From an uncultured Candidatus Poseidoniales archaeon (GTDB lineage: Archaea > Thermoplasmatota > Poseidoniia > Poseidoniales > Poseidoniaceae): DNA of 64,000 bases. Position 1 is the first letter of the stretch. Each line of letters starts with the position of its first letter. The DNA lies in the NCBI GenBank assembly GCA_964577145.1, contig CAZNXM010000003.1:6186-70185 (forward strand). The letters are read 5' to 3'. Of this stretch, positions 10,775-47,792 are shown one piece after another. Both the position numbers and the translations under genes were made by a program. The notes beneath the pieces were generated by a model. It searched no databases. It had not been told where the DNA came from and worked only from the letters and a program-made list of their open reading frames with translations.

Positions 10775-10817
10775 GGTTTATTTCCACTGCACCGTTTCAG
10801 TGACCCGTTTTCGTAGG

Positions 10818-10902
10818 ACTCCTCTGCAATTCCACCCTACGGGTGGTGGGGAGGTGTTAAAAGAGGGTCTAAGGTGGCCGAGACGCTCCAGCCTTACGGC
10901 TG
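10818..10902 (+). promoter_or_regulatory. Structured leader upstream of the giant aglB: nested hairpin CTCCTC..CCACCC-tac-GGGTGG..GGAGG (10818-10856) and CAGCC-ttac-GGCTG (10889-10902), followed by GGGAG before the ATG.
   Basis: Inverted repeats read directly from the sequence in the 154-nt purD-aglB spacer. Confidence 0.2.
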
Positions 10903-10928
10903 CACTTTGACAACAGAGGGAGAAAAAA

Positions 10929-13900
10929 ATGTCGAACAATAATGGCAACCAAAACGGCGTGCCGAATGGGATGCTTGGGTGGCTAATCGCCCCCCTTGCA
11001 GTTCTAGTCGCAATCGCCGCAAACCTGATTGGTGACTTCGGTCTCAATTTGGATCTCGATGGAATGACACCGTTCGTAGCAATTATCGTCGCTGCGATCT
11101 TAGGAACTGCACCACGCACAATTCGTGAGAAAGCAGACATCACATTGCCAACACAGTACATCTCCCTCCTCGTACTAATCGTCGCAATTGTTGCTTCAGA
11201 AGGTGCTGCAATGCTATCCGGTTCTAATCTGGTTGGCTTGTTATTCTTCATCACGATGTTTGCAGGACACATTCTCGATACTCGTGGTCGACACGAGTGG
11301 AATACCGTGATGGTATTCACAATTGTAGGACTACTGTTTGCACTTATCGCTGCAGGCGATTATGCTTCAACAGGCGCTACATACGTTCTTGACGGACAAG
11401 AAATCGAGCGAACTTCCGCATGGCAGGAAGCTATCGGTTTCGTATTCTTTAACATGCTAACGCTCATGGTTGTACTCGGTTTCTTAGCCGCAGTTCTAAC
11501 CCGTGGAGTACTTACCCCTGAGAGCGAAGACGGATGGTTTGGATACATTCCTTCATTTGATGGATATTACAACAAGAAGACTTTGCCCTTGCAACTCGCA
11601 CTCTTGGTGTGGGCTGCATCGCATGCTGCTGTTCTATGGTACTTCTTCGGTTCTGGGGATTTGAACATTCTCGCAATCTATACCGATGATGCATACACTG
11701 GATATGTTGGTTATTGGCCTGCATTACTAACCGGTGTTTTTGCACTTATTGTTTCGTGGATGTGCGCTGAGCGCTGGTTCACTCGTGCAATGTTCATCGG
11801 TTCAATGTGGATTCTTTACGTCGTATCCTCGCTATATGAGCAAGGGCATTGGACTAATGAGAACTTCGAGCGTAGTTGGGCTGTATGGATTTGGTTCGGA
11901 ATCACCTTTGCTATTGGAGTGGTAATTTACTGGTTCAGTACTCATGAGAGTTACGGTGGATGGATGATTCGTGAATTGCACGAGCCTAGCGCTGCACGCG
12001 TATTCTGGTCCAATCACTGGGCAGGAATCATGACTGTTGCTGCATTCTTAACTGCACTTGCAATCAGGATTCAGTGGTATGCTGTTCCATCGATGAACTC
12101 CTATGGAATCGATTCATGGGACATGACCGGTGGTTCTGACCCGTGGTACATGAAGCGCGTTGTCGACTATATCATTGTAGAAAATGCGCATCTCATATTC
12201 GATGCAGATCGCAACTATCCAGTTGGAGGTATCAATCCACGTCCGCCTCTCTTTACTTGGTCGATTGCACTTGTTGGAATGATTATTGCACCATTGGCTA
12301 ACGTAAGTACTGAAGAAGGAGTCTGGTGGTCAATCCTTGCACTTCCTGCAATATTTGGCGCACTAACTGTCTTCCCAATGGCTGCAATGACACGTGATAA
12401 CTTCGGCAAGGGTGCTGGAGTAATCGCAGCTTGGTTAATCGCATTCATGCCAACCCATGTGCAGAAGAGTACCTGGGGAATGGCAGACCACGATTCATTC
12501 GTAATGCTGTTCATGGTTGCTGCATTCATGTTCTATCTACGCGCAGTCAAACTGGGTGGAGATGAACGCTTGGTGCGTAATGTCAATGCAAGTATACCTT
12601 CAATGCTCAACGCGATGGGTGCTGTTCTAAGGCAGCGTCGTGCTGCTTCTGGCAATGCAATCGCTTCAGGTGTTTGTTTTGCTATCGTTGCATTGGGATG
12701 GAAAGGATTCGTTTACGGTCCTGCAATTCTATTCCTTGCATACTCTGCACAAGTTGCAATGAATATGTTCCGTCGCCGTGACAGTACAATTCTTTCAACA
12801 TTGAACATTCTAATGCTTGGAACAATCTTCCTGATGGTCATTCCATTCTATGGTCACCCACAGTTGGATTTGGTTCTAAACGCAACAGGATTGCAGCCAA
12901 TGGTATTCATCGGTGGCTTCACAGTGGCAATCACTTGGATTACTACTGGATTCCGCGACAAGCCATGGTTACTTGTATTGGGTTCACTCTTCTTTGGACT
13001 CGGTGCATTCCTAGGATTGCTCTATCTCTTACAGTCGATGGATATTTCCAATGCTTGGAATGTTCTAACCACTGGAAGTGGTTATTTCAGTAAGGACAAG
13101 ATCTTCGGCACAATTGCTGAGGCAAGTGCCCCAAGCCGTGGTCAACTATTCGCAAGTTATGGGCCAATTGTATTCGTTCTTGCTATTATCATGGGATTCC
13201 TCGCTCTATGGGATGGATTCGTAAAGAAAAACTCAACACACCTCGTTCTCGGAATGTGGGTTCTTGTTGCTTCTTACATGGCATGGTCAGCTGGCAGATT
13301 CCTGTTCAACGCTGCACCAGCAATGGCCATCATGGGTTCATGGGGAATCGTCGCACTTTGGAGAGCCAGCGGTGCTGGAAAGATGTCCAAGGAATGGAGA
13401 CGAATGGGAATACGTACTCCTGGTGAGCGAATATCCAATGCTCGTCGCGCAGTATGGCGAACACCTCAATTCAGTGCAATTGGACTTATTCTGGTACTAT
13501 TGGTGAGTCAACATGCTACCTACGGCCTAGATGCTGCAATACCAGGTAGTTCTCGACATGAAGGGAACATGGATGAAACTCTGTACAATGTTATTCCAGA
13601 CATCATGCGCTGGAATGACATGGGATTCTCATTGTTAGATGATTCCGAATACGATCAGGACACAGGTCGCTGGTACCTCGGTAGTTTCGGTTCAGGTTTC
13701 AACGACCAAGGATGGAATATGGCCTATGATTGGCTTGATGAACAGGACCAAGAAATGGCTTATTCTGACCGTCCAGCATTCGTAAGTTGGTGGGATTATG
13801 GTTTCCAAGCACTTGAAACCGGTTCACACCCTTCAGTTTCCGATAACTTCCAGTCTGGAATCCCTGCTACAGGTAATATGCTTCTAGCACGAAATCAAGA

Positions 13901-16900
13901 TGACCTTGTTGCAATGTTCGTTTGGAGATTATCCGAGGGTGACCTCAAATACTCTGGAGATGGTGAACATACAGGTTCTTTCGAATCAACTCTCAAGAGT
14001 CATCTATCTACTGCAGAGGTCAATGAATTCATCGCAATTCAGACAGACCTCGACTCAGAGATGGTAAAAGCACGTTCCTTTGAGGTAGTTCAAACTAATC
14101 AGGAAGTGACAATGGCAGCAGGTACTGTATTGTCTGAGGGTCTGCTTACAAACGGAGATACTGTTTGGAAGATTTATGATTCTGGCGACCTTGTTCCCTG
14201 TGAATCTACAGAGGAATCTCCAGATGATTGTCTAGGGGAGGCATTTACTGATTTCAGTGATGCTAACACCACCTTCAACAGTCGTATTCGTTCTACAAAG
14301 GACACACTGTTTGAAACAACACACTACATCTTTGGGGACTACTGGTACACTAGCGACCTAATCGAGGAATTCGATTCGGTTAGTACATCTATTCACCGTA
14401 AGAATTCCGGAATTGCACTAGTAACTCAGTTATTGATTGGAACATTGGATAGTAGTGAACTAAACGATCTCTATGTAGACTTGATGGATAACTCCGTGTA
14501 TTCTGTTCAGAATTACGAAGGTGCACCCGGTGAAACAATTACTCGTGACCACGAGATACGATACTTTGCTGTCGACAACCGTCTGTATCCGAGAGCAGGA
14601 AAATACAGTAGTGATTACACTGGTGGAAACCCATCAGGAATTTTCGCTGCACCGACTATCCTTTCAGGACAGGACTTTAGCACTTTTATGATTGAAACCT
14701 ATGAGACACGACGTGGCGAATTCAGTGATGAGATGTCACGTGAGGAATTCGAGACTGAGATGCAAAAAGATGCAATTAATCAGCAGTCTGGTGCTCAGAT
14801 TGACCCACTACAGCTGGTTGACATTCGCATTGATCACACCTCAGATTTCTTTGAGACAATGCTCGCAAGAGCATATGTTGGATATGGTGCATCAGACCTT
14901 GGTTTCGCAACTAATGAGCAGCCAGGACAGCACTTCGGACAGTCGGGTACACCTGAAACAATGATGGCAAATGCCCTTCCACTACCAGGTGCAATGATGA
15001 ATCACTTTGTTATCGCAAATTGGTATGATGCAAATGATGCTGACAATACGATTAGTCAAGCAAATACTCTTGTAAAGATTCTGAAGTATTATCCAGGTGC
15101 AGAAATCGGTGGTACAGTTACCATGTCTGATGATGGACAACCTCTTGGAGATGTTCGAATTCTAATCGAGCGTGATGCATTCTCTGGTGAGGATAATACC
15201 GATCTAGATTCTGATACCTATTGGATTCCAATTGGTTATACTGATGCGGATGAAAATGGTGAGTGGTCCTATACAGTTCCAGCAGGCCGTATTCGAGTCT
15301 CTGCATATGCAGGAGAATATGATGATACTGCGGCAAAGGATGTTTTCCGAAGCGGTGAATATACCGAAACTCTTGCAGATTTCCTTACAGATGCAAATGA
15401 TGACCGAGATACAAACCTAATCACATCTTTACTAGGAAAGGTTGCAAACATGACCTGGATGGGTGAGTCGACAAATAATATCAGTGGACCAGTTGCAAAC
15501 CGCGATAGCGAGTTCACAGGTTCATACGATATCGAAGTTGATAGTAGCGGTGTTTCTGGAACAGTATTGTGGTCGGGACACGAATCCTTTAACGACCTAC
15601 CACTAGACAATACTACCTTTATTCTTAGGAGTATTTGGGCACTGACAGACAACTACACCCTAGAGACCACATCTGGCTCATTCAGTTCTGAAACTAGCCG
15701 AATAATGCAGGGTACCGGCGAGGTAACCTTCGTTGACGACGGCAGATTTGAATCTGAGGGAATGGCAATCGTACGTGATTTCACTGGAACCTTTGCACGT
15801 GATATTGCTGATGAACGCTCATACACATCCAATGGTTCGTGGACCGGTGCTGGACACATTGTTGCAACTTGGATTAACATGACTGCAGCAGATTGTTTAG
15901 TTGAGGAGAACGAGACAGTTCTTCCAAGTTATGTTGATGAAGATAATCATACGATATATGACACGATTTGTCTTACCGATGAGGAAAACACCTACTTCTT
16001 TGCTGGAACGGTTTCTGCCAATGGTAGAATGACTGCTGATGGAACGGTTTCCTTAGTAAAGAATCTTGATGATGAGACCTTTGAGGGCGCTGGTATCTTT
16101 TTGGGAGAGGGTACTGCAAATGGAACTGGACTATTCATTGGAGCTGGAGATTTCTCCGGTGATATGGTCAAGCCCGGTTCATTCTTCATGACTGGATTAA
16201 TACCCGGTACTTACAACATGATTGCACACCTTGACAATGGAAAGGAAGTATTGCTTCCAGAACCTCTAATTGTCGATGTCAAACCAACATTCGATATTCA
16301 GATGACCCTGCCAGGCAGTATTTTCGAAGACATATTGTACGATGGTACGGGTGAGAGATTGAATGACACTATTATCGAATTAGTCGATATGGGACTTGGC
16401 GAAGAAAGCGTAGTCACCATTGTCACTGATGAGAATGGTTCATTCTCACACGGGCCTCTTGCAAAGGGCGATTACATGTGGCGTGTTGATGTTGACCAAG
16501 ACGGTTGGTATGAGCGTGAAGTTCCACTAACTGTTGGTGATGAATCGGCTAATCTGACCCTAGAGGTATCGATTCCAACGAAGAGAGATTTGACTATCCA
16601 ATTGGAAGCAGTTGATCCATTAGACCCATTAAATCCACTAATAGATGTGACAAATAGAACTCTTGTATTCACAAATATTCTGTCAACCGATGCTAATCCA
16701 TATGTTACTAACGCAACCTCTGATGAAAATGGTGTAGTATACATTGAAATCGACAGAGGAGAGTGGATTGTTTCCGATGAATCCGATGAACAATTTGTAT
16801 TGTGGGATGAAATTAATGTGAATACTGATGACCTAAACCTCACAATGAGTTATGCTGAGAGTGTTTGGGTAAATGGTACAGTATATGCAGTACCTGAGAA

Positions 16901-19900
16901 TATTGTCGAATCTGTTGGAGGCGTGGAAAACATGACTGACGAAATGCTTAGCAACCATGTTGCGAGCAATGTCCTAACTGTTGAGGCTAGGTCTGGTTCT
17001 ATTATGCTGAGTGACGTAACTGACATGAATGGAACTTATTCACTACGTCTACCAGGCAGTAGGGTCTTCCATATTACAGCAGATGCTTACATCAATAGTG
17101 AATCTTACAATGGCGGCCATCTATTGCTCGATGCAAGTAATGGCGTACCTGCAATATTCCTACATGAAACAACAGTTGTACGTGGTTCAGTCTGGCTCAA
17201 TGAAGCTGGTGATAATGGCACATCGTGGGGCGAAGGAGTTCCTGGTTCAGAAGGTGCTGAAGTAATCGCCACAAATTCAGAAGGATTGGAATGGAGGGTC
17301 GAACTTACTGAGATTGGTGATTTCACAATTTCCCTTCAACAGGATAATTGGACTTTTACTATCTCAAATGAGGATATGAATGTTGCACCATTAGATATTG
17401 AAATTCTTGAAGAAACCCCCGCTCCGCTTGAATTAATAGCAGATCCGAACCCTGTGAACCTTACATTCCATGTATTTGTGGATACTAACGACGATAGAGT
17501 TTGGGAGAATGGAACACATGTTCAGTTAGAATTCAGTTTGATACCGGTGAGTGACTTTGGTACACAGTACAATGTTACTGCTGCTAATTATAATACTGAA
17601 ACCAATGAACTCAACATCACTCTTGATGTTGGTGAATACAGTATTGTGATGCCACAAATAAGTCCACGCGATGAGAATGCAACTGATTACATCCTCAATG
17701 GAGACTTCCCACCGGGATTAGATCTTGGATTAGCAGGTTCTGGGGATCCAGTTCCAATCATTCTTGATGCGGCTTGGTTGACTACTGGAACCGTACTAGA
17801 GGACGATGGAGTAACTCCAATGGATAATTCCAGTTTCTGGCTACGTAGCGTGGATGACGAAGAATTCCATATGGTTACAACCGATGAAAACGGAACATTC
17901 GCAGATTACTTGCCACAAGGTGAGTGGGTTGTTGAAGTTGCACCATATGAATCTAGTAGCAATGTTACAGAGATTTACCGCGGCATGATAACACTCGATG
18001 AGAATTCATCTGTTCGTACTGATCTTCAATTCATGACGAGACCTGCATTGGTTATCGATATGCAATTGCAGGAGGTTTTGACTGGAGTCAATATCACTGC
18101 TACACGAGTTACTGCAGTCAGTCAGGATGGTCTGGGCAATGTCAGTCTAGGGCCTTCGGATAATTCCGGTATGATTACTGAAGTCCTAATGCCAGGTGCA
18201 TGGACACTTTCACTTAACAAGTCAAACAGTATTGAACAGTGGATGCTAGACGAAGGCGTGTACAATTTTGATACAAGCACTGCAGTCAATGGAACATGGG
18301 ACCTTGGTATTGTTGAAGTTGAGAAATTAGTGAGCATTGGTGGTAAGGTCTTCTGGGACCTCGATGCTGATGATATTGCAGATTCAAGCGAAGGAATTGC
18401 AGATGTAAATGTCACAATTCTTGGAGGCTCGGTTAATGAGACTCTAATCACAGATGAAAATGGTGTTTGGAAAATGTTTGTTCCAATCCGTACCAATTAC
18501 ACAATTGATGTGTACAAGGATGGATTCGCAGGTGCAACTTACATGGAAGGCAATGAATCGATGTATGTAGTAAATGATACACACGAAAGCCGTGATATTG
18601 AATTGGTTGCAGGAGTGGTATCTGTTTCTGGAACTGTTACAGATATCGCACCTCAGGGACGACTTGAGAATGCAAGCGTAACTCTCTATCCAGTTATTGG
18701 AATTGAAAGAGATAGCGTAGTTGCACAAACCTCATTCGATAATGGCACTCTTACTTGGACAGCTTCTACTGCTCCAGGTGATTGGGTCGTTGTCGTCACT
18801 GGAACTGATATCACCGATAACGGTGGAGGAGTTGCAGTCGGTTTGCTTCAAGCATCTGTACAAGATGGAGCAACTCTTGACCTAGTTATGTCATATGGAG
18901 GACGAATGATCATCGATTCAAGTTGGTCGTCTTTCGATAATATTGTTGAATACAATGCTGGAGATCTCGATGAGACCGTACGTGTCGAAATTGATCTTAG
19001 TGAAGGTATTGAATGGTACATCGATTTCGATGAGAATGGAGAATTCGACATCATTCTACCAACAGGCACTGTCCAACTAATCTCAGAGTTCACCAATATT
19101 CAGCATGAAATGGGATTGGAGATGGAGTACAATGCTGCTCGTAACATCGACAACCAGGTTGGACTTGATTCCAAGACTCTTGAATTCACTCGCAGAACAA
19201 ATTCCGATATGGAAATTGGACTTGCGAGCATTGAATCCGGTGCAACTGCAGGTGAAGGAAACCTTGAGTTGAACTCAATCACAAATGACGAGAATGGCTA
19301 TGAGCAAATCGAAGTCACTCTTTCAATGGATTATGATGGAACCGAGGTCACAGATATCTTCACAGTATCTGGCGGAGTATCAGGTGCACAGGATCAGGAC
19401 CTATGGGTAGTAGAATTCTACAATGCTTCTAGTGAAGAATGGGAAACCACAATCGATGTAAGCATGGGTGTTGGAACCAATAGTACCGATGAAGCAAATA
19501 TTCTGAATGAGACTGTATTGGCAAGATTTACTCTACCGTTACAGAATGAATCAAACAGCTATGATGATGGGCACAGCCTAAACATACGAATGGTATCTGA
19601 CCAAGGTGGATTATCCGAGATTGGATTCTCTGTATTTGTTGAACAGCAATATCAAATCACATTGAGCGATTCACCTGAGGCAATCGGTGTTGCTGATGGC
19701 GGTGAAACACTAGTAACAGTTGATTTGTTCAACGAAGGAAATGGTGACGATAGCATCGAGATTTCGGCAAGTCTAGAAGAAGAGTGTATCGATTGGCAGG
19801 TTACTCCTGCGAATTCAACCATTACCATTGCATCCGGAAATGGCCGTACACAGTCTTTCACTGTGCATGCGCCAGACAATGCTACTGTCACAAGTTGTGA

Positions 19901-20411
19901 CTTGACAATTGTCGCCGATTCTGAAGGTGCTGTAGAGCAGTTGTCGACCGGTACTGAAGTGAAGGTTGCAGTTGCGACCTTGAGTTTCGTACAGGGACAA
20001 GAGAGATCAGATATTGAAGCAAATGAGGCTGGTGTTATTTCCATCATGGTAGAGAACACAGGATTCCTAACTGCAACTGATGTCATCGTGTATCTCGAAG
20101 GAACCCATGGAACTGATTATCCAGCCGAACAGGTGACGATTACTGTTCCAGCAGAGGGAGTTGCTACAGCAGTATTCGACCACGATGGATTTGTTCCAGG
20201 ACCTCAGAGATTCAAGACGTACATGACCATTATTGGAACTCCTGTTGACAGTACTGGACCTGACCATGAGGACACATTCGAGATTGAATTCTACAATGTT
20301 GCCGATGAGGAAAAGGGTGGCGGAGTTATCTATGTTGTAGCAGTTCTAGGAGCCCTCGTACTCTTCGGCGGATACAAGACTGCTCGCAAGGGTTCCAAGG
20401 CTCGCTTCTGA
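10929..20411 (+). CDS. aglB: Giant oligosaccharyltransferase AglB/STT3 fusion. N-terminal ~350-aa extra polytopic domain, STT3 core (EL1 DPWY...D.D at aa ~404, WWDYG at aa 954-958), ~2200-aa extracellular C-terminal region of repeated CarboxypepD_reg-like (TDENG) and Ig-like domains, and a C-terminal TM helix.
   Basis: Single uninterrupted 3160-aa ORF. FVSWWDYGFQ at nt 13788-13802. SDPWYMKRVVDYIIVENAHLIFDADRNYPVGGINPRPPLF first loop. Repeated IVTDENGSF / VTTDENGTF / ITDENGVW motifs. C-terminal GGGVIYVVAVLGALVLFGGYKTARKGSKARF. Confidence 0.75.
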   Translation: MSNNNGNQNGVPNGMLGWLIAPLAVLVAIAANLIGDFGLNLDLDGMTPFVAIIVAAILGTAPRTIREKADITLPTQYISLLVLIVAIVASEGAAMLSGSNLVGLLFFITMFAGHILDTRGRHEWNTVMVFTIVGLLFALIAAGDYASTGATYVLDGQEIERTSAWQEAIGFVFFNMLTLMVVLGFLAAVLTRGVLTPESEDGWFGYIPSFDGYYNKKTLPLQLALLVWAASHAAVLWYFFGSGDLNILAIYTDDAYTGYVGYWPALLTGVFALIVSWMCAERWFTRAMFIGSMWILYVVSSLYEQGHWTNENFERSWAVWIWFGITFAIGVVIYWFSTHESYGGWMIRELHEPSAARVFWSNHWAGIMTVAAFLTALAIRIQWYAVPSMNSYGIDSWDMTGGSDPWYMKRVVDYIIVENAHLIFDADRNYPVGGINPRPPLFTWSIALVGMIIAPLANVSTEEGVWWSILALPAIFGALTVFPMAAMTRDNFGKGAGVIAAWLIAFMPTHVQKSTWGMADHDSFVMLFMVAAFMFYLRAVKLGGDERLVRNVNASIPSMLNAMGAVLRQRRAASGNAIASGVCFAIVALGWKGFVYGPAILFLAYSAQVAMNMFRRRDSTILSTLNILMLGTIFLMVIPFYGHPQLDLVLNATGLQPMVFIGGFTVAITWITTGFRDKPWLLVLGSLFFGLGAFLGLLYLLQSMDISNAWNVLTTGSGYFSKDKIFGTIAEASAPSRGQLFASYGPIVFVLAIIMGFLALWDGFVKKNSTHLVLGMWVLVASYMAWSAGRFLFNAAPAMAIMGSWGIVALWRASGAGKMSKEWRRMGIRTPGERISNARRAVWRTPQFSAIGLILVLLVSQHATYGLDAAIPGSSRHEGNMDETLYNVIPDIMRWNDMGFSLLDDSEYDQDTGRWYLGSFGSGFNDQGWNMAYDWLDEQDQEMAYSDRPAFVSWWDYGFQALETGSHPSVSDNFQSGIPATGNMLLARNQDDLVAMFVWRLSEGDLKYSGDGEHTGSFESTLKSHLSTAEVNEFIAIQTDLDSEMVKARSFEVVQTNQEVTMAAGTVLSEGLLTNGDTVWKIYDSGDLVPCESTEESPDDCLGEAFTDFSDANTTFNSRIRSTKDTLFETTHYIFGDYWYTSDLIEEFDSVSTSIHRKNSGIALVTQLLIGTLDSSELNDLYVDLMDNSVYSVQNYEGAPGETITRDHEIRYFAVDNRLYPRAGKYSSDYTGGNPSGIFAAPTILSGQDFSTFMIETYETRRGEFSDEMSREEFETEMQKDAINQQSGAQIDPLQLVDIRIDHTSDFFETMLARAYVGYGASDLGFATNEQPGQHFGQSGTPETMMANALPLPGAMMNHFVIANWYDANDADNTISQANTLVKILKYYPGAEIGGTVTMSDDGQPLGDVRILIERDAFSGEDNTDLDSDTYWIPIGYTDADENGEWSYTVPAGRIRVSAYAGEYDDTAAKDVFRSGEYTETLADFLTDANDDRDTNLITSLLGKVANMTWMGESTNNISGPVANRDSEFTGSYDIEVDSSGVSGTVLWSGHESFNDLPLDNTTFILRSIWALTDNYTLETTSGSFSSETSRIMQGTGEVTFVDDGRFESEGMAIVRDFTGTFARDIADERSYTSNGSWTGAGHIVATWINMTAADCLVEENETVLPSYVDEDNHTIYDTICLTDEENTYFFAGTVSANGRMTADGTVSLVKNLDDETFEGAGIFLGEGTANGTGLFIGAGDFSGDMVKPGSFFMTGLIPGTYNMIAHLDNGKEVLLPEPLIVDVKPTFDIQMTLPGSIFEDILYDGTGERLNDTIIELVDMGLGEESVVTIVTDENGSFSHGPLAKGDYMWRVDVDQDGWYEREVPLTVGDESANLTLEVSIPTKRDLTIQLEAVDPLDPLNPLIDVTNRTLVFTNILSTDANPYVTNATSDENGVVYIEIDRGEWIVSDESDEQFVLWDEINVNTDDLNLTMSYAESVWVNGTVYAVPENIVESVGGVENMTDEMLSNHVASNVLTVEARSGSIMLSDVTDMNGTYSLRLPGSRVFHITADAYINSESYNGGHLLLDASNGVPAIFLHETTVVRGSVWLNEAGDNGTSWGEGVPGSEGAEVIATNSEGLEWRVELTEIGDFTISLQQDNWTFTISNEDMNVAPLDIEILEETPAPLELIADPNPVNLTFHVFVDTNDDRVWENGTHVQLEFSLIPVSDFGTQYNVTAANYNTETNELNITLDVGEYSIVMPQISPRDENATDYILNGDFPPGLDLGLAGSGDPVPIILDAAWLTTGTVLEDDGVTPMDNSSFWLRSVDDEEFHMVTTDENGTFADYLPQGEWVVEVAPYESSSNVTEIYRGMITLDENSSVRTDLQFMTRPALVIDMQLQEVLTGVNITATRVTAVSQDGLGNVSLGPSDNSGMITEVLMPGAWTLSLNKSNSIEQWMLDEGVYNFDTSTAVNGTWDLGIVEVEKLVSIGGKVFWDLDADDIADSSEGIADVNVTILGGSVNETLITDENGVWKMFVPIRTNYTIDVYKDGFAGATYMEGNESMYVVNDTHESRDIELVAGVVSVSGTVTDIAPQGRLENASVTLYPVIGIERDSVVAQTSFDNGTLTWTASTAPGDWVVVVTGTDITDNGGGVAVGLLQASVQDGATLDLVMSYGGRMIIDSSWSSFDNIVEYNAGDLDETVRVEIDLSEGIEWYIDFDENGEFDIILPTGTVQLISEFTNIQHEMGLEMEYNAARNIDNQVGLDSKTLEFTRRTNSDMEIGLASIESGATAGEGNLELNSITNDENGYEQIEVTLSMDYDGTEVTDIFTVSGGVSGAQDQDLWVVEFYNASSEEWETTIDVSMGVGTNSTDEANILNETVLARFTLPLQNESNSYDDGHSLNIRMVSDQGGLSEIGFSVFVEQQYQITLSDSPEAIGVADGGETLVTVDLFNEGNGDDSIEISASLEEECIDWQVTPANSTITIASGNGRTQSFTVHAPDNATVTSCDLTIVADSEGAVEQLSTGTEVKVAVATLSFVQGQERSDIEANEAGVISIMVENTGFLTATDVIVYLEGTHGTDYPAEQVTITVPAEGVATAVFDHDGFVPGPQRFKTYMTIIGTPVDSTGPDHEDTFEIEFYNVADEEKGGGVIYVVAVLGALVLFGGYKTARKGSKARF

Positions 20412-20502: not shown

Positions 20503-21723
20503 ATGTGGGAGGAGCGTGAGCTTGAGGGTATCGAGTTTATTCCCGAGCCCTCCGATTCCAGAATCCTCTCTGCAGCAGATAGTACGACGATTGGTCATCA
20601 AGAAGGGTGGCGCGCGGAAGTTCTGGGTTGGGCACCTGACCCAGTCCATGTTATTCCACGGCGCTCTAGGGCCTCTCAAAGAATTGCCAATGTTGGAATC
20701 ATGCTCCTAATGCTACTAGTTGTATGGGGAATGTGGAATTCACAATTCCTCTACCTTGAGGTTCCACCTCCTACTTCGGAATGGGCTTTTGAGGACACGG
20801 GAATAAGAGATTTACAGGAATCAGGTCTCGACGGTGCTGGAATTCGTGTATGCATGGTTGATACAGGAATCGATGCAACCCATCCCGATTTTGCTGACGC
20901 AGATATCGTGTTCAAGGATTTCTTGACGGGTAGTACAGAGCCAATAGACCATGGAGGGCTTGCTCATGGAACTATGATGGCAGGGATTTTGATTGCAGAC
21001 GGCCACATGAAAGGTGCAGCCCCTGGTGCGACCATAGGGATGGCAGCAGCACTCGGTGACGATGGCGATGGAAGCAATAGTGGCGAAGAAACACTTGTTG
21101 CCGATGCCATTGAATGGTGTTGGCGCGAATTTAATGCAGACATCATTTCGTTATCCTTAGGTGGGGTAAATGACCCAAATGCTAGTCGCGAGGGGCCTAC
21201 TACAAGTGCGGTAAGGCAGGCGATAGACCAAGGCGTGTTCATAGTTGCAGCTGCTGGAAATGATGGTGGAGTTGATGATGATGGGCGAGTAGCTTCACCA
21301 TCAAACGTAAGGGAGGCAATATCCGTTGGTGCATTACTAGAAGATGGCTCGCTTTGGGAAGGCTCGTCAAAAGGTTCACAAATAGATGATGAAAATAATT
21401 TGAGAACAGATCCACATCTGAAACCTGAAGTTTCCGCTCCAGGCTATGACATCATTTCCACGGGTCCAAATGGATTGTATTATACTTCTACTGGAACATC
21501 TGATTCTACGGTTTTTGTTGCTGGAGCCTTGGCTTTGATTCTCGAAGCCGAGCCAACTTTGAAACAAGCAGGTCCAGATTGTATGGAGATGGTAAAACAA
21601 GCATTGCAAACCTCCTCAACCCCGCTCGAAAACGGAGTTTCGCATGATGAATATTGGGGATATGGTGCTCTCAATGCTAATATTTGGCTCGAAGAAATCA
21701 GGTCTGAAGGCGCGTGTGTCTGA
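20503..21723 (+). CDS. Subtilisin-like serine protease (S8) with an N-terminal signal anchor.
   Basis: Catalytic D (VCMVDTGID), H (HGTMMAG) and S (GTSDSTVFVAGALALI) motifs, plus the hydrophobic N-terminal segment IMLLMLLVVWGMW. Confidence 0.85.
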   Translation: MWEERELEGIEFIPEPSDSRILSAADSTTIGHQEGWRAEVLGWAPDPVHVIPRRSRASQRIANVGIMLLMLLVVWGMWNSQFLYLEVPPPTSEWAFEDTGIRDLQESGLDGAGIRVCMVDTGIDATHPDFADADIVFKDFLTGSTEPIDHGGLAHGTMMAGILIADGHMKGAAPGATIGMAAALGDDGDGSNSGEETLVADAIEWCWREFNADIISLSLGGVNDPNASREGPTTSAVRQAIDQGVFIVAAAGNDGGVDDDGRVASPSNVREAISVGALLEDGSLWEGSSKGSQIDDENNLRTDPHLKPEVSAPGYDIISTGPNGLYYTSTGTSDSTVFVAGALALILEAEPTLKQAGPDCMEMVKQALQTSSTPLENGVSHDEYWGYGALNANIWLEEIRSEGACV

Positions 21724-21935
21724 GGTAAACGCTATACTGCTAGCAATATTACCAATATTACAGGATTTGACATTTATCGAGTAATTTGATATTATTATAT
21801 TTTTAATCAAAATAAAATTTATTTTTCGCATTTCGAGCAAGTGATACAATTAACTAATTTTGATACTATCCAATTGGAATTTAAACGAATCAGTTAAGGT
21901 GGACCTTGAATTCCCGAAGTTAGAGAGGGATTCAT
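21724..21935 (+). promoter_or_regulatory. Strongly AT-rich ~210-nt intergenic region upstream of the 1424-aa gene. Probable promoter (TATA-like ttatatttttaa) and 5' UTR.
   Basis: The local composition is much more AT-rich than the surrounding coding sequence. No ORF. Confidence 0.35.
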
Positions 21936-24900
21936 TTGGACAATACCAAGGCCCGTTACAGCATAGCAATGACCAGCATCTTTCTGATGTCTATCTTCGC
22001 AGGAATTGCGATGATTCCATCAGCTTCTGCGGTAAATGAAACCACTTCGGGTACTATCACTGGTACAGAAACTTGGACTGGAGTGATGAATATGGATGGC
22101 GATATTCTCGTCGCCGGTGGAGCCAAATTGATTATCAATGCAGGAACAACCATCAATATTCCAGCAAATAGAAGCATTCACATTCAAGGTTCTATTTGTG
22201 CAGGTGATACTTCATGTGGGGCTACACAGGGAAGTACCGGGTCTCCGGTACGCTTTATTTGGGGTGCTGCTGCTAGTGGACCTGCAAACCAGTCGCGCTG
22301 CTATGTAACAGGAATTTGGAACCCAGACCTCTCATGTGGTTCCGGTATCTACCTTGATTCTACGATAGATCAATCTCTTACTAAATTGAATCATGTTACT
22401 CTCGATGGTGCGTTTGGGATTCCTATTGACATCGATGGTCAAGGGAATTACAAGTACGGTGCATTGATTTTTGATGGCGCTAGTGTACAAACTTCCAATC
22501 TAAATTTCAAGGATATCAACACAACAAATGTACTCGTATTTTCGGGTGCTGCTCCAAAGATTGACGGCAGCACATTTGTCGTTGGTGCCGATGAAAATGG
22601 TTACCACGGTGCTGCGATTCAAGCATATGGTGCTGGTGCAGGATTAGTCACCATGGATGTCACAAATTCTGCATTCACCGGTGCTGAAACCGATTGTGGA
22701 AGCCAGGGTGGTGGGCGCTCAGCTATCTATCTGGAAAATTCGTTCGTGAACATGGACACAATTTCGATTACTCAGAATTCTTATGGTGCTTTCTTACGAA
22801 GCAGTAGTGGTTGGTTGACAAATTCGAATATCGCTACCAAGTGCAATGCGATTGACACGAATTCACACCTTGTTACCAACGAGTTTCGTCACACCTTCGT
22901 GATCAGTGATAACACAATCACTCCTGCTGAAGGCGCAGGTATTACCGCATATGACGGTGCGATTGTATTGGCAGAGCGAAACACTATTTCAGGTGCTTCT
23001 GAAGGTTCAGGCTTTGGAATTCGCTCGTCTGAGGTTGTTATCAACAACAACGTAATTGGTCCTATCGAAGGATGGAATGGCCTGTGGATTTATGGTGAGT
23101 CAGATGTTTCTGCTGAGAATAACACAATTCTCAACACCGGTAGGGAAGCAGTTCTACTCGGTGAATATCACTACAACGACCAAGGTTGGAATGTCCCAGC
23201 GCCATCTAAGGCTCGATTGTATTTCGCAAACAATGTTGTTTCCAACAATACGGGAACATGCAACTCCGAATGGATGTATGGTGGCGATTTCCCTTGCCCT
23301 GCTTTCCATCTATTCATGACTTCTGCAACATTTATCGATAATACCGTGACTAATAATCTCGGAGATGGATTCAGAGTTAAGGGCGGAATTATTAACGCAC
23401 AAGGCAATGATATCGAGGTCGGTGGATTTGCTGCAAACATCTCACTATATGATGATAAGTATGGCAACAAGTATGGAAGTATTGGCTACTTTGCAGAAAA
23501 TACCTATACTAACGCTAGTCAGATTTACAATGTAACCGAGTCGAGAGTTGCAGTCCAATCGGAATACATGCCAGACCCAGGTGCAGGAGAGCAATATCCA
23601 GTTCAGTTGGCATGGTTAGGTGCAGAATGTCCGTGGGCAAATGATGAATGTCTACAAACGCCAACAACTGCTGACATGCCGCCGAGATTTATGCCACTTT
23701 CAATGGAATTGAATGTCAATGCAACAACTTTCACTTTCGCAGATGTACTGAACTTTGATCGCTCAAAGATTCACATTCAGAACCAAAACACTGCTTGGGG
23801 TGTACAAGTCGAACAAGGAGAATTAGTTCGCTATCAAGTAAAGGCAGACAATTCTCAGGTAGCAGACGCCCTTGTCAAAATCAAGGATGCAAATGGCAAG
23901 CCCCTGTACAATATGTCCACAGATGCATATGGATTCACTCAATGGGTAACTCTCCCATCCAACTTCCATATTGATACAAATTGGAATCATCTTGCAAATG
24001 ATCCTGGTGAGGATTCATGTGGTGACGGAAGTGACAATGATGGAGACACATTGGTCGATGGTCAAGACCCTGATTGCCAAACTGGAAGGGAAATGCCATT
24101 GTACAGTGTTTCCGCAAGCAAATTTGGCAAAGGCACATCGGACCACGATTTCACTTTGACTGGAATGGTCGATGAGACAATTCATCTAAGCAATACTGCA
24201 CCTTCGATTTCTATCGACCAAAACGATGGAACATCATTCCCTCGAACTGTTAGTTTGAGCGGTAGTGCACACGATGGAATTTCTGGACCATATTTCAATG
24301 ATTATGATTCATATGTCAAGCAATTTGGATTAGTGAAGCGTGTCGAGATTCAGCCGCATGGCAGTTCGGATTGGTACCTTGCAACCGATACTTCGAATGC
24401 AGATGGTGAAGTTACAGCACAGAATTGGCCTTTCAAGTCTTGGAGTTTTGACTGGGATATGTCCAATCACTTTGAGGAGGATGTTACATTCAGAGTAAAA
24501 TCCTTTGATGGTATCGAAGATTCCATTGTAACAACTAGAGTTTTCAAACTCAACATTAATCCTCCAAATCTTGTGTTGGAGTCACCGATTGATGGTTCTA
24601 CTCACAGTGGTTCTGATATTCTGTTCAGTGGCACCGCAAGCGATGACTATCAGGGAGTTTGGGGAAGCGATATCAGGGACATCTGGTTCCAGGTTGAAGG
24701 TCCAAACAATTACTCTGCTAACTACCCAGCTGGAATGGGTGGTTCAAGCGTGTGGAGCGACAAATGGAATTTCTCATCATTGCCTTCTGGTGATTATACA
24801 TTCACCGTGTGGGCTAGTGATTCAAATTATTGTCATGAGGAAGTTGACGTCTGTACTGCAGATACAATCACAGTGACTGTTGATAATGACAATCGCCTTC

Positions 24901-26210
24901 CAATTGTCCAAGTAAGTGAGCCACTTCCTTTCGATAGTATTCGTGCCTCTGAAGACACAATTATCTCAGGAGTTGCCAGAGACAATGATGGTCAAGTTAC
25001 TCGAGTTGAGATTTCAATTGTCGATTTAGCAAGTGGAATTGAGTTACTTGATGGGCCCGACCCAATTACTAATTTCCAACCAAATGGTGCATGGGCAACA
25101 TATTGGGACACAAGTGATCTAGTTCATGACCAACAGTATGAAATTCATGTAAAGGCATACGATGGTATTGATTATTCAATGATTGAAGTACTGAGAATTG
25201 TCATCGACAATCCATCCGATGCGAACAACATCGCTCCAACATTTTCTCCAGATGGCTGGATTAGCACAATCACAATCTTCTGTGATGAGAAATCGAATGC
25301 TTTCAATAAATGCGGGGTAGGTGCAAGTATTAACCTGCTAGATTTCTTTAATGATTCAGATGGAGTTGGTCCAGATACAAGCCACATGGTTTTCGATATT
25401 TACGACGATCCCTCGACACTAGTCGATGACGATTATGCGTACCACATCCAAATTGATGCTAAGGGTGTTGCAACTTACAACCCTATGAATTCAATGTCCT
25501 CTCACTCTTCTGAGATATCGGAATGGTCTCTCGTAAATGTGATGTTTGAGGCTCGTGATGCACATGATTCTCCAGCATATTCCTATACGATTAATTTCAT
25601 CGTTAAGGGTGTTGAATTTACTGCAGTTAGAGAAGATGCAGGTGCTCTTGTATTCGGTGATGATGCCGAGTTCAGCGGTACAGGTTTGCCGGGAAGTCAA
25701 GTCAAAGCTAGATTACTTTCTGGAAATCTATTACTAAACCAGACTACCGTCAAGGATGATGGAACATGGAATATGGCACTAACAGCTAGCCAATTAGGCG
25801 ATGATGGTGTGTACGATATTTACTTTGAGCAGGATGGTCAATACATCGGCAAAGGTGAAAAGAATGACAATTCAGAGTTCGCATTACAAAATGGATTGAC
25901 TGCAGCATCAGGTATTCCGGGATGGCTACTTGTTGTGTTCGTAGTAATCGGAATAGTAGTTCTTCTTGGTGTAGGTGCTTTCTTCTTCATTGAATTTGAA
26001 GAATTTGACGAAGACGAGGAAGGTTCTGACGAGCAACAAAAGGATGAGGACCCCTATGCATGGGCAAAGGTGAGAGCAGCCGAGCAAGCAGTTGCAGCAG
26101 CAGCACCTGCACCTCAACCTGCTGCCGAGCCTCAGCATCCTGGTTGGCTATGGGACACACAATCAAATCAGTGGGTTCCAGACCCCAATTACCAGCCACC
26201 ACAGCAGTAA
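21936..26210 (+). CDS. Giant secreted surface protein: signal peptide, right-handed parallel beta-helix (PbH1) repeats, Ig-like domains, C-terminal TM and an acidic/Pro-rich cytoplasmic tail.
   Basis: MDNTKARYSIAMTSIFLMSIFAGIAMIPSASA signal. NNT(I/L)xN / NNVxxNN repeats. C-terminal GWLLVVFVVIGIVVLLGVGAFFFI, then DEDEEGSDEQQKDEDP ... AAAPAPQPAAEPQHPGWLWDTQSNQW. Confidence 0.8.
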   Translation: MDNTKARYSIAMTSIFLMSIFAGIAMIPSASAVNETTSGTITGTETWTGVMNMDGDILVAGGAKLIINAGTTINIPANRSIHIQGSICAGDTSCGATQGSTGSPVRFIWGAAASGPANQSRCYVTGIWNPDLSCGSGIYLDSTIDQSLTKLNHVTLDGAFGIPIDIDGQGNYKYGALIFDGASVQTSNLNFKDINTTNVLVFSGAAPKIDGSTFVVGADENGYHGAAIQAYGAGAGLVTMDVTNSAFTGAETDCGSQGGGRSAIYLENSFVNMDTISITQNSYGAFLRSSSGWLTNSNIATKCNAIDTNSHLVTNEFRHTFVISDNTITPAEGAGITAYDGAIVLAERNTISGASEGSGFGIRSSEVVINNNVIGPIEGWNGLWIYGESDVSAENNTILNTGREAVLLGEYHYNDQGWNVPAPSKARLYFANNVVSNNTGTCNSEWMYGGDFPCPAFHLFMTSATFIDNTVTNNLGDGFRVKGGIINAQGNDIEVGGFAANISLYDDKYGNKYGSIGYFAENTYTNASQIYNVTESRVAVQSEYMPDPGAGEQYPVQLAWLGAECPWANDECLQTPTTADMPPRFMPLSMELNVNATTFTFADVLNFDRSKIHIQNQNTAWGVQVEQGELVRYQVKADNSQVADALVKIKDANGKPLYNMSTDAYGFTQWVTLPSNFHIDTNWNHLANDPGEDSCGDGSDNDGDTLVDGQDPDCQTGREMPLYSVSASKFGKGTSDHDFTLTGMVDETIHLSNTAPSISIDQNDGTSFPRTVSLSGSAHDGISGPYFNDYDSYVKQFGLVKRVEIQPHGSSDWYLATDTSNADGEVTAQNWPFKSWSFDWDMSNHFEEDVTFRVKSFDGIEDSIVTTRVFKLNINPPNLVLESPIDGSTHSGSDILFSGTASDDYQGVWGSDIRDIWFQVEGPNNYSANYPAGMGGSSVWSDKWNFSSLPSGDYTFTVWASDSNYCHEEVDVCTADTITVTVDNDNRLPIVQVSEPLPFDSIRASEDTIISGVARDNDGQVTRVEISIVDLASGIELLDGPDPITNFQPNGAWATYWDTSDLVHDQQYEIHVKAYDGIDYSMIEVLRIVIDNPSDANNIAPTFSPDGWISTITIFCDEKSNAFNKCGVGASINLLDFFNDSDGVGPDTSHMVFDIYDDPSTLVDDDYAYHIQIDAKGVATYNPMNSMSSHSSEISEWSLVNVMFEARDAHDSPAYSYTINFIVKGVEFTAVREDAGALVFGDDAEFSGTGLPGSQVKARLLSGNLLLNQTTVKDDGTWNMALTASQLGDDGVYDIYFEQDGQYIGKGEKNDNSEFALQNGLTAASGIPGWLLVVFVVIGIVVLLGVGAFFFIEFEEFDEDEEGSDEQQKDEDPYAWAKVRAAEQAVAAAAPAPQPAAEPQHPGWLWDTQSNQWVPDPNYQPPQQ

Positions 26211-26249
26211 TTGTCAACACAGACTACCATAACACTCTAAGAGGAACCA

Positions 26250-47745: not shown

Positions 47746-47792
47746 CAAGATGTCAGGCCAACCTTGACATCCCGCATCGATTGCCACTGGCC

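What the first reader, a model, noticed from the sequence alone, without database searches (positions are those of the whole stretch)
10929..20411. 3160-aa oligosaccharyltransferase (AglB/STT3) fused to an extra N-terminal polytopic domain and ~2200 aa of CarboxypepD_reg-like repeats
The STT3 hallmarks are visible: the EL1 loop DPWY ... D.D at aa ~404 and WWDYG at aa 954-958, about 550 residues apart, as in characterised archaeal AglBs. However, the catalytic core is preceded by ~350 aa with about 8-9 additional TM helices. It is followed by a very long extracytoplasmic region built from at least six transthyretin-like TDENG(S/T/V)(F/W) modules and Ig-like domains, and ends in another TM helix with a basic tail. 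Typical AglBs are 600-1000 aa. An OST tethered at both ends, with a ~2000-aa repeat stalk, suggests an enzyme that reaches far from the membrane, for example to glycosylate the giant surface proteins encoded around it, or one that doubles as a structural surface component.
Basis: partly seen in the sequence, partly recalled or inferred. Interest (0 to 1): 0.75.

Follow-up and report, generated by a model that had tools for sequence, protein, structure and literature searches.

The report
Giant oligosaccharyltransferase of marine Poseidoniales archaea
The gene is real and encodes a 3160-residue version of the archaeal protein-glycosylating enzyme AglB/STT3, found throughout Marine Group II archaea, that carries an orphan 10-helix membrane domain in front and a long, sequon-rich, membrane-anchored surface array behind.

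Summary
The ORF 10929..20411 (+) is uninterrupted and encodes 3160 aa. An STT3/AglB core sits at aa ~355-1390. GSD404, D520-H-D522, TIAE731 and WWDYG954-958 are invariant in 24-46 aligned relatives.

It is not an assembly artefact. More than 120 protein clusters and 450 species-level genomes, all named ones Poseidoniales apart from one Verrucomicrobiales-labelled contig, carry full-length orthologues. They measure 3138-3276 aa, all parts are under purifying selection, and the gene order is conserved.

The N-terminal extension has 10 TM helices, not 8-9. It is predicted confidently (pTM 0.84) but has no sequence relative outside this family among 1.84 billion proteins. It has no significant fold match.

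The C-terminal part (aa 1391-3125) is acidic and holds at least 9 diverged transthyretin-like modules. It holds 46 N-X-S/T sequons against about 18 expected. This excess is conserved across the family, and 17 sites are positionally conserved. The catalytic ectodomain is sequon-poor.

Best reading: a catalytically competent AglB whose own doubly anchored tail is a heavily N-glycosylated surface component. The idea that the enzyme "reaches" to distant substrates is not supported. This is a new variant of a known kind. I found no published description.

The parts
10929..20411 (+). Complete gene for the giant AglB/STT3 (3160 aa plus stop)
   Evidence: It is a single ORF. Full-length orthologues of 3138-3276 aa occur in more than 120 clusters and 450 species genomes.
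10929..11990 (+). N-terminal extension, aa 1-354. It has 10 TM helices (14-35, 43-69, 75-97, 100-118, 122-148, 162-191, 216-241, 262-280, 284-304, 318-338). The N-terminus is cytoplasmic.
11991..13538 (+). STT3/AglB transmembrane catalytic domain, aa 355-870 (about 13 TM helices)
   Evidence: Pfam STT3 and NCBIfam archaeo_STT3 match. phmmer aligns it to AfAglB-L 3waj/5gmy. The top Foldseek hits are 7e9s and 3wak (AfAglB), then yeast and human STT3.
12132..12140 (+). First DXD-type motif, G402-S403-D404, in the sequence GGSDPWY on EL1
   Evidence: It aligns to AfAglB GGNDPWY, which holds the metal ligand Asp47. It is invariant in 24-46 relatives.
12486..12494 (+). Second DXD motif, D520-H521-D522 (EL2)
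   Evidence: It aligns to AfAglB D161-H-H163 and is invariant.
13110..13121 (+). TIXE motif, T728-I-A-E731 (EL5)
   Evidence: It is identical to the AfAglB Thr-Ile-Ala-Glu motif. All relatives have T(I/V)AE.
13539..15098 (+). Enlarged extracytoplasmic catalytic (WWDYG) domain, aa 871-1390. It is sequon-poor and highly conserved.
   Evidence: The profile aligns aa ~927-995 to AglB-S C-terminal domains 3vgp and 3vu0. Identity in 50-aa blocks is 0.35-0.86. It holds 1 sequon against 4.3 expected.
13788..13802 (+). WWDYG motif, aa 954-958. The invariant DNFQ at 972-975 (13842-13853) sits at the DGGK-equivalent position.
13926..14528 (+). Alpha/beta insertion of about 200 aa (aa ~1000-1200) with invariant C1091 and C1101. 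It separates WWDYG from the next conserved strand.
   Evidence: AF2 pLDDT is about 80-88 for aa 990-1190. This is the least conserved part of the catalytic ectodomain.
14553..14606 (+). Candidate DK-like motif, EIRYFAVDNRLYPRAGKY (aa 1209-1226). D1216 is invariant. Position 1225 is K, R, M, L, V or S.
   Evidence: The resemblance to AglB DK motifs is from my memory only. Sequence alignment to solved AglBs does not reach this region.
15099..20303 (+). Acidic beta-sandwich array, aa 1391-3125. It has at least 9 transthyretin-like (CarboxypepD_reg) modules plus unassigned segments and 46 N-X-S/T sequons.
   Evidence: Pfam PF13620, SdrD_B, SpaA and NOMO-like domains hit here. Module positions are at ~1380-1494, 1778-1882, 1892-1949, 1977-2052, 2071-2146, 2266-2355, 2460-2548, 2566-2631 and 2647-2743. 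D+E is 17.6% and K+R is 3.6%. dN/dS is 0.13. There is a partial choice-of-anchor T match at aa 2894-3009.
20316..20408 (+). C-terminal TM helix (aa 3130-3148) and conserved basic cytoplasmic tail YKTARKGSKARF, ending in a nearly invariant Phe
20503..28790 (+). Conserved downstream cassette. It comprises a signal-anchored S8 subtilase (20503-21723), a type-I beta-helix/Big_7 surface protein (21936-26210) and an HTH-STAND-TPR protein (26250-28790).
   Evidence: Pfam and NCBIfam assignments are. The same order is seen in L001 (48% identical relative) and L083 (most divergent relative).

Best explanation
This is the AglB (STT3-type oligosaccharyltransferase) of Poseidoniales (Marine Group II archaea), in a lineage-specific single-chain architecture with 24 TM helices.

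Shown:
- The central ~1000 aa form a complete OST core with all testable catalytic motifs intact and invariant.
- The protein is full-length, under purifying selection in every part, and present across the order.

Inferred mechanism:
- The core transfers a lipid-linked glycan to Asn in N-X-S/T at the outer face of the membrane, as AfAglB does.
- The C-terminal 1735-aa acidic array of beta-sandwich domains lies outside the cell. It is tethered at both ends, by STT3 TM13 and by its own C-terminal TM helix.
- The array is itself a major substrate. Its conserved 2.5-fold excess of sequons contrasts with sequon depletion in the catalytic ectodomain. This indicates that it is heavily N-glycosylated, in cis or by neighbouring copies.
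- The glycosylated array forms a membrane-anchored glycoprotein arch that contributes to the cell envelope.
- The N-terminal 10-TM orphan domain has its conserved polar residues on cytoplasmic loops. It most likely serves as an accessory membrane module. Candidate roles are handling or delivery of the lipid-linked donor, or docking to cytoplasmic or translocon partners. This is the least certain step.
For: OST core:
- Pfam STT3 E=4.6e-17 and NCBIfam archaeo_STT3 E=3.3e-48.
- phmmer alignment to AfAglB-L places GGSDPWY on GGNDPWY and ADHD on NDHH.
- The Foldseek top hits are AfAglB 7e9s at E=1.7e-11, then yeast and human STT3.
- GSD404, DHD520-522, TIAE728-731 and WWDYG are invariant and retained in the most divergent members.
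- Motif roles are taken from PMC8342417.

Reality and distribution:
-.

Selection:
- dN/dS is 0.06-0.16 in all five regions.

Topology:
-, plus the positive-inside count.

Array as substrate:
- It holds 46 sequons against 18.2 +/- 3.8 expected.
- 24 relatives have 31-54 against 16-20 expected, and 17 sequon columns are conserved in at least 18 of 25 sequences.
- Divergent members have 31-64 against 13-20 expected.
- It has the highest sequon density of any ORF in the window.
- The catalytic ectodomain has 0-3 sequons against 4-6 expected.

Expression:
- Supplementary data of PMC9723583 list aglB among the genes with higher transcript abundance when MGII genus O1 was active.
Against: - No biochemical, proteomic or glycoproteomic evidence is available.
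- The DK/MI motif could not be identified with confidence. In the 1-1200 model the WWDYG segment had pLDDT below 50.
- Whether Poseidoniales also carry a conventional short AglB was not testable here. If they do, this protein could have a specialised rather than a general role.
- A sequon excess predicts glycosylation but does not prove it, and it says nothing about a structural role.
- The array was not structure-predicted, so the 'arch' is inferred from topology alone.
- Nothing links the N-terminal domain to any specific activity.
Confidence: 0.6

Rival explanations
1. Accessory-scaffold reading. The beta-sandwich array is not mainly a coat component. It acts as a built-in counterpart of the lumenal subunits of eukaryotic OST (ribophorins, OST48) or of the NOMO rod. 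In this view it is a spacer or substrate-holding scaffold above the active site, or it sets the distance between the membrane and an outer layer. The extra TM helices would play the part of the small OST subunits.
For: - The array and the C-terminal TM anchor mimic the 'beta-sandwich ectodomain plus single TM' design.
- Pfam gives weak hits to NOMO1-like domains (PF22902 at 18.4 bits, PF23193).
- Domain order and total length are tightly conserved at 3138-3276 aa with few indels. That fits a defined machine better than a variable adhesin.
- The proximal part, up to aa ~1800, is more conserved than the distal part.
Against: - All NOMO-type hits are below their cut-offs and reflect a generic prealbumin-like fold.
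- The conserved sequon excess of the array is not explained by a scaffold role alone.
Confidence: 0.2
2. Polyprotein reading. The chain is cleaved after translocation, for instance by the conserved adjacent membrane-tethered S8 subtilase. Cleavage would give a conventional-size AglB (plus the N-terminal domain) and a separate, C-terminally anchored surface glycoprotein. The fusion would then ensure that the coat protein is made and glycosylated next to its enzyme.
For: - An S8 subtilase lies immediately downstream in this window, in L001 and in the most divergent L083.
- Its N-terminal signal-anchor (aa 61-79, after PRRSRASQR) places the protease domain outside the cell.
- Its best NCBIfam match is mycosin, a membrane-anchored processing protease, although below the cut-off.
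- The array has its own TM anchor.
Against: - No cleavage-site motif was identified.
- Conservation is continuous across the aa 1390 boundary.
- Conserved gene order alone does not show a protease-substrate relation. The subtilase could equally process the neighbouring beta-helix protein.
Confidence: 0.15
3. Pseudo-enzyme reading. The STT3 core has lost catalysis and serves only as a polytopic membrane anchor for a giant surface protein.
For: - The DK/MI motif is not recognisable by sequence.
- The score against the archaeo_STT3 model is far below its cut-off, 164.7 against 450.
Against: - Every metal-binding and sequon-binding residue that could be aligned is invariant over sequences down to ~45% overall identity, and in still more divergent members.
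- dN/dS for the TM core is 0.063, the lowest of all regions.
Confidence: 0.03
4. Artefact reading. The long ORF results from a frameshift, a mis-assembly or a chimeric join of separate genes.
For: A few fetched loci carry shorter WWDYG ORFs of 1335, 1447 and 2002 codons.
Against: - Hundreds of independent assemblies from different studies give the same uninterrupted ~3180-aa ORF.
- Some of these lie on contigs of more than 1 Mb.
- The few short cases are what sporadic sequencing errors would produce.
Confidence: 0.01

Closest known systems
Archaeoglobus fulgidus AglB-L (PDB 3WAJ/3WAK/5GMY/7E9S), the structurally characterised archaeal single-subunit oligosaccharyltransferase
   Same: - It shares the 13-TM GT-C core.
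- First DXD-type motif: GSD404 here, GND47 there.
- Second DXD motif: DHD here, DHH there.
- The TIAE motif is identical, and WWDYG is present in both.
- It is the best sequence match and the best fold match.
   Different: - AfAglB-L is 868 aa (875 in the deposited chain). This protein is 3160 aa.
- AfAglB-L has no 10-TM N-terminal domain, no ~200-aa insertion after WWDYG, no 1735-aa beta-sandwich array and no C-terminal TM anchor.
- Identity is only 16-18% over the aligned core.
- The longest STT3-type chain seen in my PDB searches is 935 aa.
NCBIfam TIGR04154 archaeo_STT3 (archaeosortase A system-associated AglB subfamily of Euryarchaeota)
   Same: It is the best-scoring curated family, matching aa 369-990 to model positions 4-573 of 831.
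   Different: - The score of 164.7 bits is far below the 450-bit cut-off.
- The C-terminal third of the model is unmatched.
- The protein's own C-terminus lacks a PGF motif.
Eukaryotic multi-subunit OST (STT3 with ribophorin I/II, OST48, DAD1, OST4, TMEM258 and others) and the NOMO rod of the BOS complex
   Same: There is a design analogy only. A catalytic STT3 is surrounded by extra TM helices and accompanied by beta-sandwich ectodomains that end in a single TM anchor. NOMO is a chain of prealbumin-like domains with a C-terminal TM. These statements on subunit architecture rest on my knowledge, not on a test here.
   Different: - Here everything is in one polypeptide.
C-terminally membrane-anchored archaeal surface (S-layer-type) glycoproteins
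   Same: It has an acidic, sequon-rich, beta-sandwich ectodomain ending in a TM helix with a short basic tail. The comparison to archaeal S-layer glycoproteins rests on general knowledge.
   Different: - It is fused to the glycosylating enzyme.
- It has no signal peptide of its own and no PGF-CTERM.
- It has no detectable sequence relative among solved structures at E<=1.
- Lattice formation is unknown.

Membership tests
STT3/AglB/PglB oligosaccharyltransferase (GT-C fold) | N-terminal polytopic GT-C domain of about 13 TM helices | tested here: met
   Pfam PF02516 scores 63.1 bits against a cut-off of 24.5. AF2 helices from aa 355-870 are consistent with about 13 TM helices. The top 16 Foldseek hits are all AglB or STT3 chains, at E 1.7e-11 to 1.8e-6.
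STT3/AglB/PglB oligosaccharyltransferase (GT-C fold) | First DXD-type motif on EL1 (AfAglB Gly-Asn-Asp47, a metal ligand) | tested here: met
   G402-S403-D404 aligns to AfAglB GGNDPWY. It is invariant in relatives. The definition comes from PMC8342417.
STT3/AglB/PglB oligosaccharyltransferase (GT-C fold) | Second DXD motif on EL2 (AfAglB Asp161-His-His163) | tested here: met
   D520-H521-D522 aligns to NDHH of AfAglB and is invariant.
STT3/AglB/PglB oligosaccharyltransferase (GT-C fold) | TIXE (archaea and bacteria) or SVSE (eukaryotes) motif on EL5 | tested here: met
   T728-I-A-E731 is present here. All 24 relatives examined have T(I/V)AE, and so do the divergent members.
STT3/AglB/PglB oligosaccharyltransferase (GT-C fold) | WWDYG motif in the extracytoplasmic C-terminal domain | tested here: met
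   WWDYG is at aa 954-958. It is invariant and aligns to AglB-S domains 3vgp and 3vu0.
STT3/AglB/PglB oligosaccharyltransferase (GT-C fold) | DGGK motif or its equivalent shortly after WWDYG | tested here: inconclusive
   The invariant D972-N-F-Q975 aligns with NNFQ of AglB-S. It occupies the expected position but is not DGGK.
STT3/AglB/PglB oligosaccharyltransferase (GT-C fold) | DK or MI motif forming the Ser/Thr pocket together with WWDYG | tested here: inconclusive
   Profile alignment to solved AglB domains stops at aa ~995. There is a candidate at aa 1209-1226 with invariant D1216 but a variable K1225. It lies ~260 aa after WWDYG. No structure model of this region was made.
STT3/AglB/PglB oligosaccharyltransferase (GT-C fold) | Oligosaccharyl transfer activity | not testable with these tools
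   This needs biochemistry or genetics.
NCBIfam TIGR04154 archaeo_STT3 subfamily | Whole-protein score above the curated cut-off (450 bits) | tested here: not met
   The score is 164.7 bits.
CarboxypepD_reg / transthyretin-like domain (PF13620) | Score above the Pfam gathering threshold | tested here: met
   The score is 67.4 bits against 32.3, with 4 stretches. Further diverged modules were found by iterated HMM and hhalign.
PGF-CTERM / archaeosortase A substrates | Pro-Gly-Phe motif immediately before the C-terminal TM helix | tested here: not met
   The C-termini of 25 family members show no PGF. The region before the helix is acidic, of the (D/E)ES.W type.
NOMO / BOS-complex rod | Pfam NOMO domain models above threshold | tested here: not met
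   PF22902 scores 18.4 bits against 27, and PF23193 has E=0.19.
UbiA / trans-isoprenyl diphosphate synthase fold (considered for the N-terminal domain) | Significant fold match, and Asp-rich motifs | tested here: not met

The most novel reading that the evidence does not exclude
Poseidoniales, the most abundant planktonic archaea of the surface ocean, may build a main part of their glycoprotein envelope from the glycosylating enzyme itself, as a single-chain 'holo-OST'. In this reading the orphan 10-TM N-terminal domain supplies or flips the lipid-linked glycan, or docks the translocon. The STT3 core glycosylates. The enzyme's own ~19-domain, doubly anchored, self-glycosylated tail is the coat, possibly released or trimmed by the co-conserved membrane-tethered subtilase.
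Probability: 0.15. Interest if true: 0.85.

Novelty: new variant of a known kind. Interest (0 to 1): 0.62.

Why it matters
Marine Group II archaea are globally abundant and uncultured, and their cell envelope is essentially unknown. The major comparative-genomics papers I checked mention neither glycosylation nor an S-layer.

This gene is an order-wide, strongly conserved locus that joins three things in one chain:
- an intact oligosaccharyltransferase core;
- a membrane domain with no detectable relatives;
- a sequon-rich surface array.

It is roughly three times longer than any characterised OST catalytic subunit. It suggests a different solution to coupling N-glycosylation with envelope assembly.

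It also gives concrete targets for work on this clade. Those are peptides and glycopeptides for metaproteomics, and a defined core for heterologous complementation.

Tried and rejected
1. Origin of the N-terminal domain.
- Pfam at E<=10 gave nothing useful, and NCBIfam gave nothing.
- A profile HMM search of 1.84e9 representatives returned only family members or contig-end fragments. Apparent short hits (P0139, P0171, P0189, P0194) are truncated, or end in peptides that I take, from memory, to be sequencing-adapter-derived.
- hhalign against the STT3 TM core, and of its two halves against each other, gave probabilities below 1%. I therefore rejected an origin by duplication.

2. DK motif.
- A profile of aa 870-1400 against PDB sequences aligned only the WWDYG region.

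3. Recent tandem repeats.
- A BLASTP self-comparison of the ectodomain found none.

4. Solved relatives of the array.
- phmmer against the PDB found none at E<=1.

5. Shared C-terminal sorting signal with neighbouring giant proteins.
- Their tails differ.

6. Literature.
- Nine searches found no description of a giant Poseidoniales AglB. There is only a passing 'oligosaccharyltransferase (aglB)' entry in a transcript table.

7. The afdb50 fold library was unavailable.

8. I could not test whether Poseidoniales also have a conventional short AglB, because whole genomes cannot be scanned with these tools.
Full report
**Observation**

The window holds one uninterrupted ORF at 10929..20411 (+) of 3160 codons.
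- Pfam places STT3 (PF02516) at aa 392-800 (E=4.6e-17).
- CarboxypepD_reg (PF13620) scores 67.4 bits with four stretches.
- There are weaker SdrD_B, SpaA and NOMO-like beta-sandwich hits, and a sub-threshold AglB_core-like hit over WWDYG.
- NCBIfam's best family is archaeo_STT3 (aa 369-990, E=3.3e-48), well below that subfamily's cut-off. A partial choice-of-anchor T match lies near the C-terminus.

**Not an artefact, and taxonomic range**

A search of 5.8 billion proteins returned more than 500 relatives.
- All but one of the best 120 cover 98-100% of the query; the exception is a 2716-aa entry at 85%.
- Their lengths are 3138-3245 aa and their identity is 45-90%. Where named, they are Poseidoniales.
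- A scan of one genome per GTDB species found 450 loci. All named ones are Poseidoniaceae, Thalassarchaeaceae or unclassified Poseidoniales, apart from one contig labelled Verrucomicrobiales (L056) that I take to be mis-binned.
- The closest is Ca. Poseidoniaceae archaeon ETNP1_MAG_19, at 93%.
- More divergent members, down to 22% identity in the N-terminal domain, are 3146-3276 aa.
- In 82 fetched loci, 64 of 69 complete WWDYG-bearing ORFs are 3145-3245 codons.
- Against the 93% relative, dN/dS is 0.067 (N-terminal domain), 0.063 (TM core), 0.097 (catalytic ectodomain), 0.132 (array) and 0.16 (C-terminal anchor).
- Alignment of 25 diverse members shows few indels and position-by-position orthology of the whole chain. 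The length is a fixed property and not a variable repeat number.

**The enzyme core**

phmmer aligns aa ~362-802 to A. fulgidus AglB-L.
- GGSDPWY falls on GGNDPWY, which holds the Asp47 metal ligand.
- ADHD falls on NDHH, which holds Asp161 and His163.
- The EL5 motif is TIAE, identical to AfAglB. Motif roles are as given in PMC8342417.
- GSD404, D520-H-D522, T(I/V)AE731 and WWDYG are invariant in 24-46 aligned relatives and kept in the most divergent ones.
- An AF2 model of aa 1-1200 (pLDDT 69, pTM 0.61) retrieves AfAglB (E=1.7e-11), then yeast and human STT3, then other GT-C enzymes.

The DK/MI motif is unresolved.
- A family profile of aa 870-1400 aligns only the WWDYG-DNFQ segment to solved AglB-S domains.
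- A well-predicted alpha/beta insertion of about 200 aa (aa ~1000-1200, with two invariant Cys) follows.
- After it comes the conserved strand-turn EIRYFAVDNRLYPRAGKY. It resembles AglB DK-region sequences as I recall them, but its Lys is variable.
- I therefore file the protein as an STT3/AglB family member, with the DK and DGGK features inconclusive. It is not a member of TIGR04154.

**The N-terminal extension**

AF2 on aa 1-362 alone gives a confident compact bundle (pLDDT 83.7, pTM 0.84) of 10 TM helices. The same helices appear in the longer model.
- Counting K and R on the sequence, loops assigned to the cytoplasm hold 12 and external loops hold 2. The N-terminus is therefore inside, and helix 10 delivers the chain correctly to STT3 TM1.
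- The conserved polar residues are E123, R192, E281, R282, T285, R286, S354 and R357. All lie on the cytoplasmic loops.
- A profile HMM of this domain against 1.84 billion representative proteins finds 81 hits. All are the giant family or fragments of it.
- Pfam and NCBIfam find nothing.
- hhalign excludes derivation from the STT3 TM domain or from an internal duplication.
- Foldseek against the PDB has no significant hit; the best is E=0.43.

The domain is thus an orphan, and its function is inferred only weakly.

**The C-terminal region**

After the catalytic ectodomain comes an acidic stretch of 1735 aa (D+E 17.6%, K+R 3.6%).
- It has at least nine diverged transthyretin-like modules and several unassigned, probably beta-rich, segments.
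- No recent repeats are detectable, and no solved relatives exist at the sequence level.
- It ends in a TM helix (aa 3130-3148) and a conserved basic tail that terminates in Phe in nearly all members.
- There is no PGF motif, so it is not an archaeosortase-type signal.

The STT3 C-terminal domain is extracytoplasmic, so the array lies outside and is tethered at both ends.

**Sequon statistics, the most informative new result**

- The array has 46 N-X-S/T sequons against 18.2 +/- 3.8 in shuffles.
- The catalytic ectodomain has 1 against 4.3 expected, and the N-terminal domain has 0.
- The pattern holds in all 24 aligned relatives: array 31-54 against 16-20 expected, catalytic ectodomain 0-3 against 4-6 expected.
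- Seventeen sequon columns are conserved in at least 18 of 25 sequences.
- The pattern also holds in the divergent members.
- Among all ORFs of the window, the array has the highest density, at 2.65 per 100 aa.
- The adjacent giant proteins at 21936-26210 and 39299-44662 are at chance level.

This argues that the enzyme's own tail is a prime N-glycosylation substrate. It argues against the idea that the enzyme is specialised for the flanking giants.

**Gene context**

The order is PurD, giant AglB, S8 subtilase, ~1430-aa beta-helix/Big_7 protein, HTH-STAND-TPR protein.
- It is conserved in a 48%-identical relative and in the most divergent relative examined. In the third locus examined (L002) the contig ends just after the gene, so only the upstream PurD/CarS neighbours could be confirmed.
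- The subtilase has an N-terminal signal-anchor that places its catalytic domain outside the cell.
- The beta-helix protein has a signal peptide and a C-terminal TM.
- This keeps open a processing (polyprotein) variant of the model.

**Mechanism and ranking**

| Reading | Confidence |
|---|---|
| Competent AglB whose doubly anchored, heavily glycosylated tail is part of the cell envelope; the N-terminal domain is an accessory membrane module acting at the cytoplasmic face | 0.6 |
| Built-in scaffold or spacer, analogous to eukaryotic OST subunits or NOMO | 0.2 |
| Polyprotein cleaved by the neighbouring subtilase | 0.15 |
| Pseudo-enzyme | 0.03 |
| Artefact | 0.01 |

An enzyme that 'reaches far from the membrane' is not compatible with where the active-site residues and the lipid-linked donor sit.

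**Novelty**

Databases auto-annotate members as 'STT3 domain-containing protein', as 'hypothetical protein' or with a JGI Stt3 label.
- Nine full-text searches found no description of this architecture.
- Reading the two main MGII comparative-genomics papers, one archaeal N-glycosylation review and one transcriptomics paper also found none. There is only a line in a transcript table.
- STT3-type chains in my PDB searches are 696-935 aa, apart from two isolated ~160-aa C-terminal domains.

I rate it a new variant of a known kind, of moderate-to-high interest.

Noticed in passing
window 4438-5472 (+): This 344-aa protein is a full-length choice-of-anchor T family member (297.5 bits against a cut-off of 70). 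Its C-terminus reads ...LPGFELIPTLSMVALAAAVLVRRGEDEDE, that is PGF, then a TM helix, then basic residues. It gives a weak Heimdall-CTERM hit. It looks like a sortase-type surface-anchoring signal, unlike the tail of the giant AglB.
   Followed up: partly
window 20503-28790 (+); L001 13039-21402; L083 10826-19033: A three-gene cassette follows the giant AglB in distant family members. It comprises a signal-anchored extracellular S8 subtilase, a ~1430-aa beta-helix/Big_7 type-I membrane protein and an HTH-STAND(AAA_16)-TPR protein. The functional link is unknown.
   Followed up: partly
window 20373-20408 and homologues: The cytoplasmic tail of the giant protein ends in Phe in nearly all family members (...RF...KF...PF), including the most divergent ones. 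No known sorting or interaction motif explains this.
   Followed up: no
window 15411-16253 (aa ~1495-1775 of the giant protein): This is a Gly-rich segment with no Pfam match and a conserved Cys pair (C1656, C1681). It is as conserved as the catalytic ectodomain (0.52-0.65 identity), apart from the 1651-1700 block (0.37). It is clearly more conserved than most of the distal array. The conserved 'functional core' may extend to about aa 1800.
   Followed up: no
window 50895-52922 (-) and 61320-63689 (-): Two secreted-looking proteins of 675 and 789 aa have signal-peptide-like N-termini and no or little family annotation. They show strong N-X-S/T sequon excess, at z 4.2 and 4.7. They are the best candidate N-glycoprotein substrates in the window after the AglB tail itself.
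   Followed up: partly
window 28791-32445 (-): Three consecutive genes (156, 715 and 347 aa) have archaeal class-III-signal or pilin-like N-termini. The last matches DUF7289 and Pilin_N. The first two of these (156/159-aa and 715/744-aa genes on the minus strand) also follow the STAND-TPR gene in L001.
   Followed up: no
window 47661-48758 (+): A GT2 family glycosyltransferase lies 27 kb downstream. Its hydrophobic C-terminal part suggests a possible dolichyl-phosphate sugar synthase type. It is the only other glycosylation gene seen in the window.
   Followed up: no
L056 (NZEQ01000036.1): A contig carrying a typical giant Poseidoniales AglB (54% identical) is deposited under 'Verrucomicrobiales bacterium isolate ARS100'. 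It is probably a mis-binned contig in that MAG.
   Followed up: no
proteins P0189, P0194 (public metagenome predictions): Apparent short stand-alone versions of the N-terminal domain end in ...LLYTSPSPRD and ...SYTHLTLPTTPYV. From memory, I take these to be translations of sequencing-adapter sequence. They are truncated artefacts, not real short genes.
   Followed up: partly
window 10778-11320 (-): A 180-aa ORF on the opposite strand overlaps the 5' end of the giant gene. Given the strong conservation of the + strand frame, it is most likely spurious.
   Followed up: no
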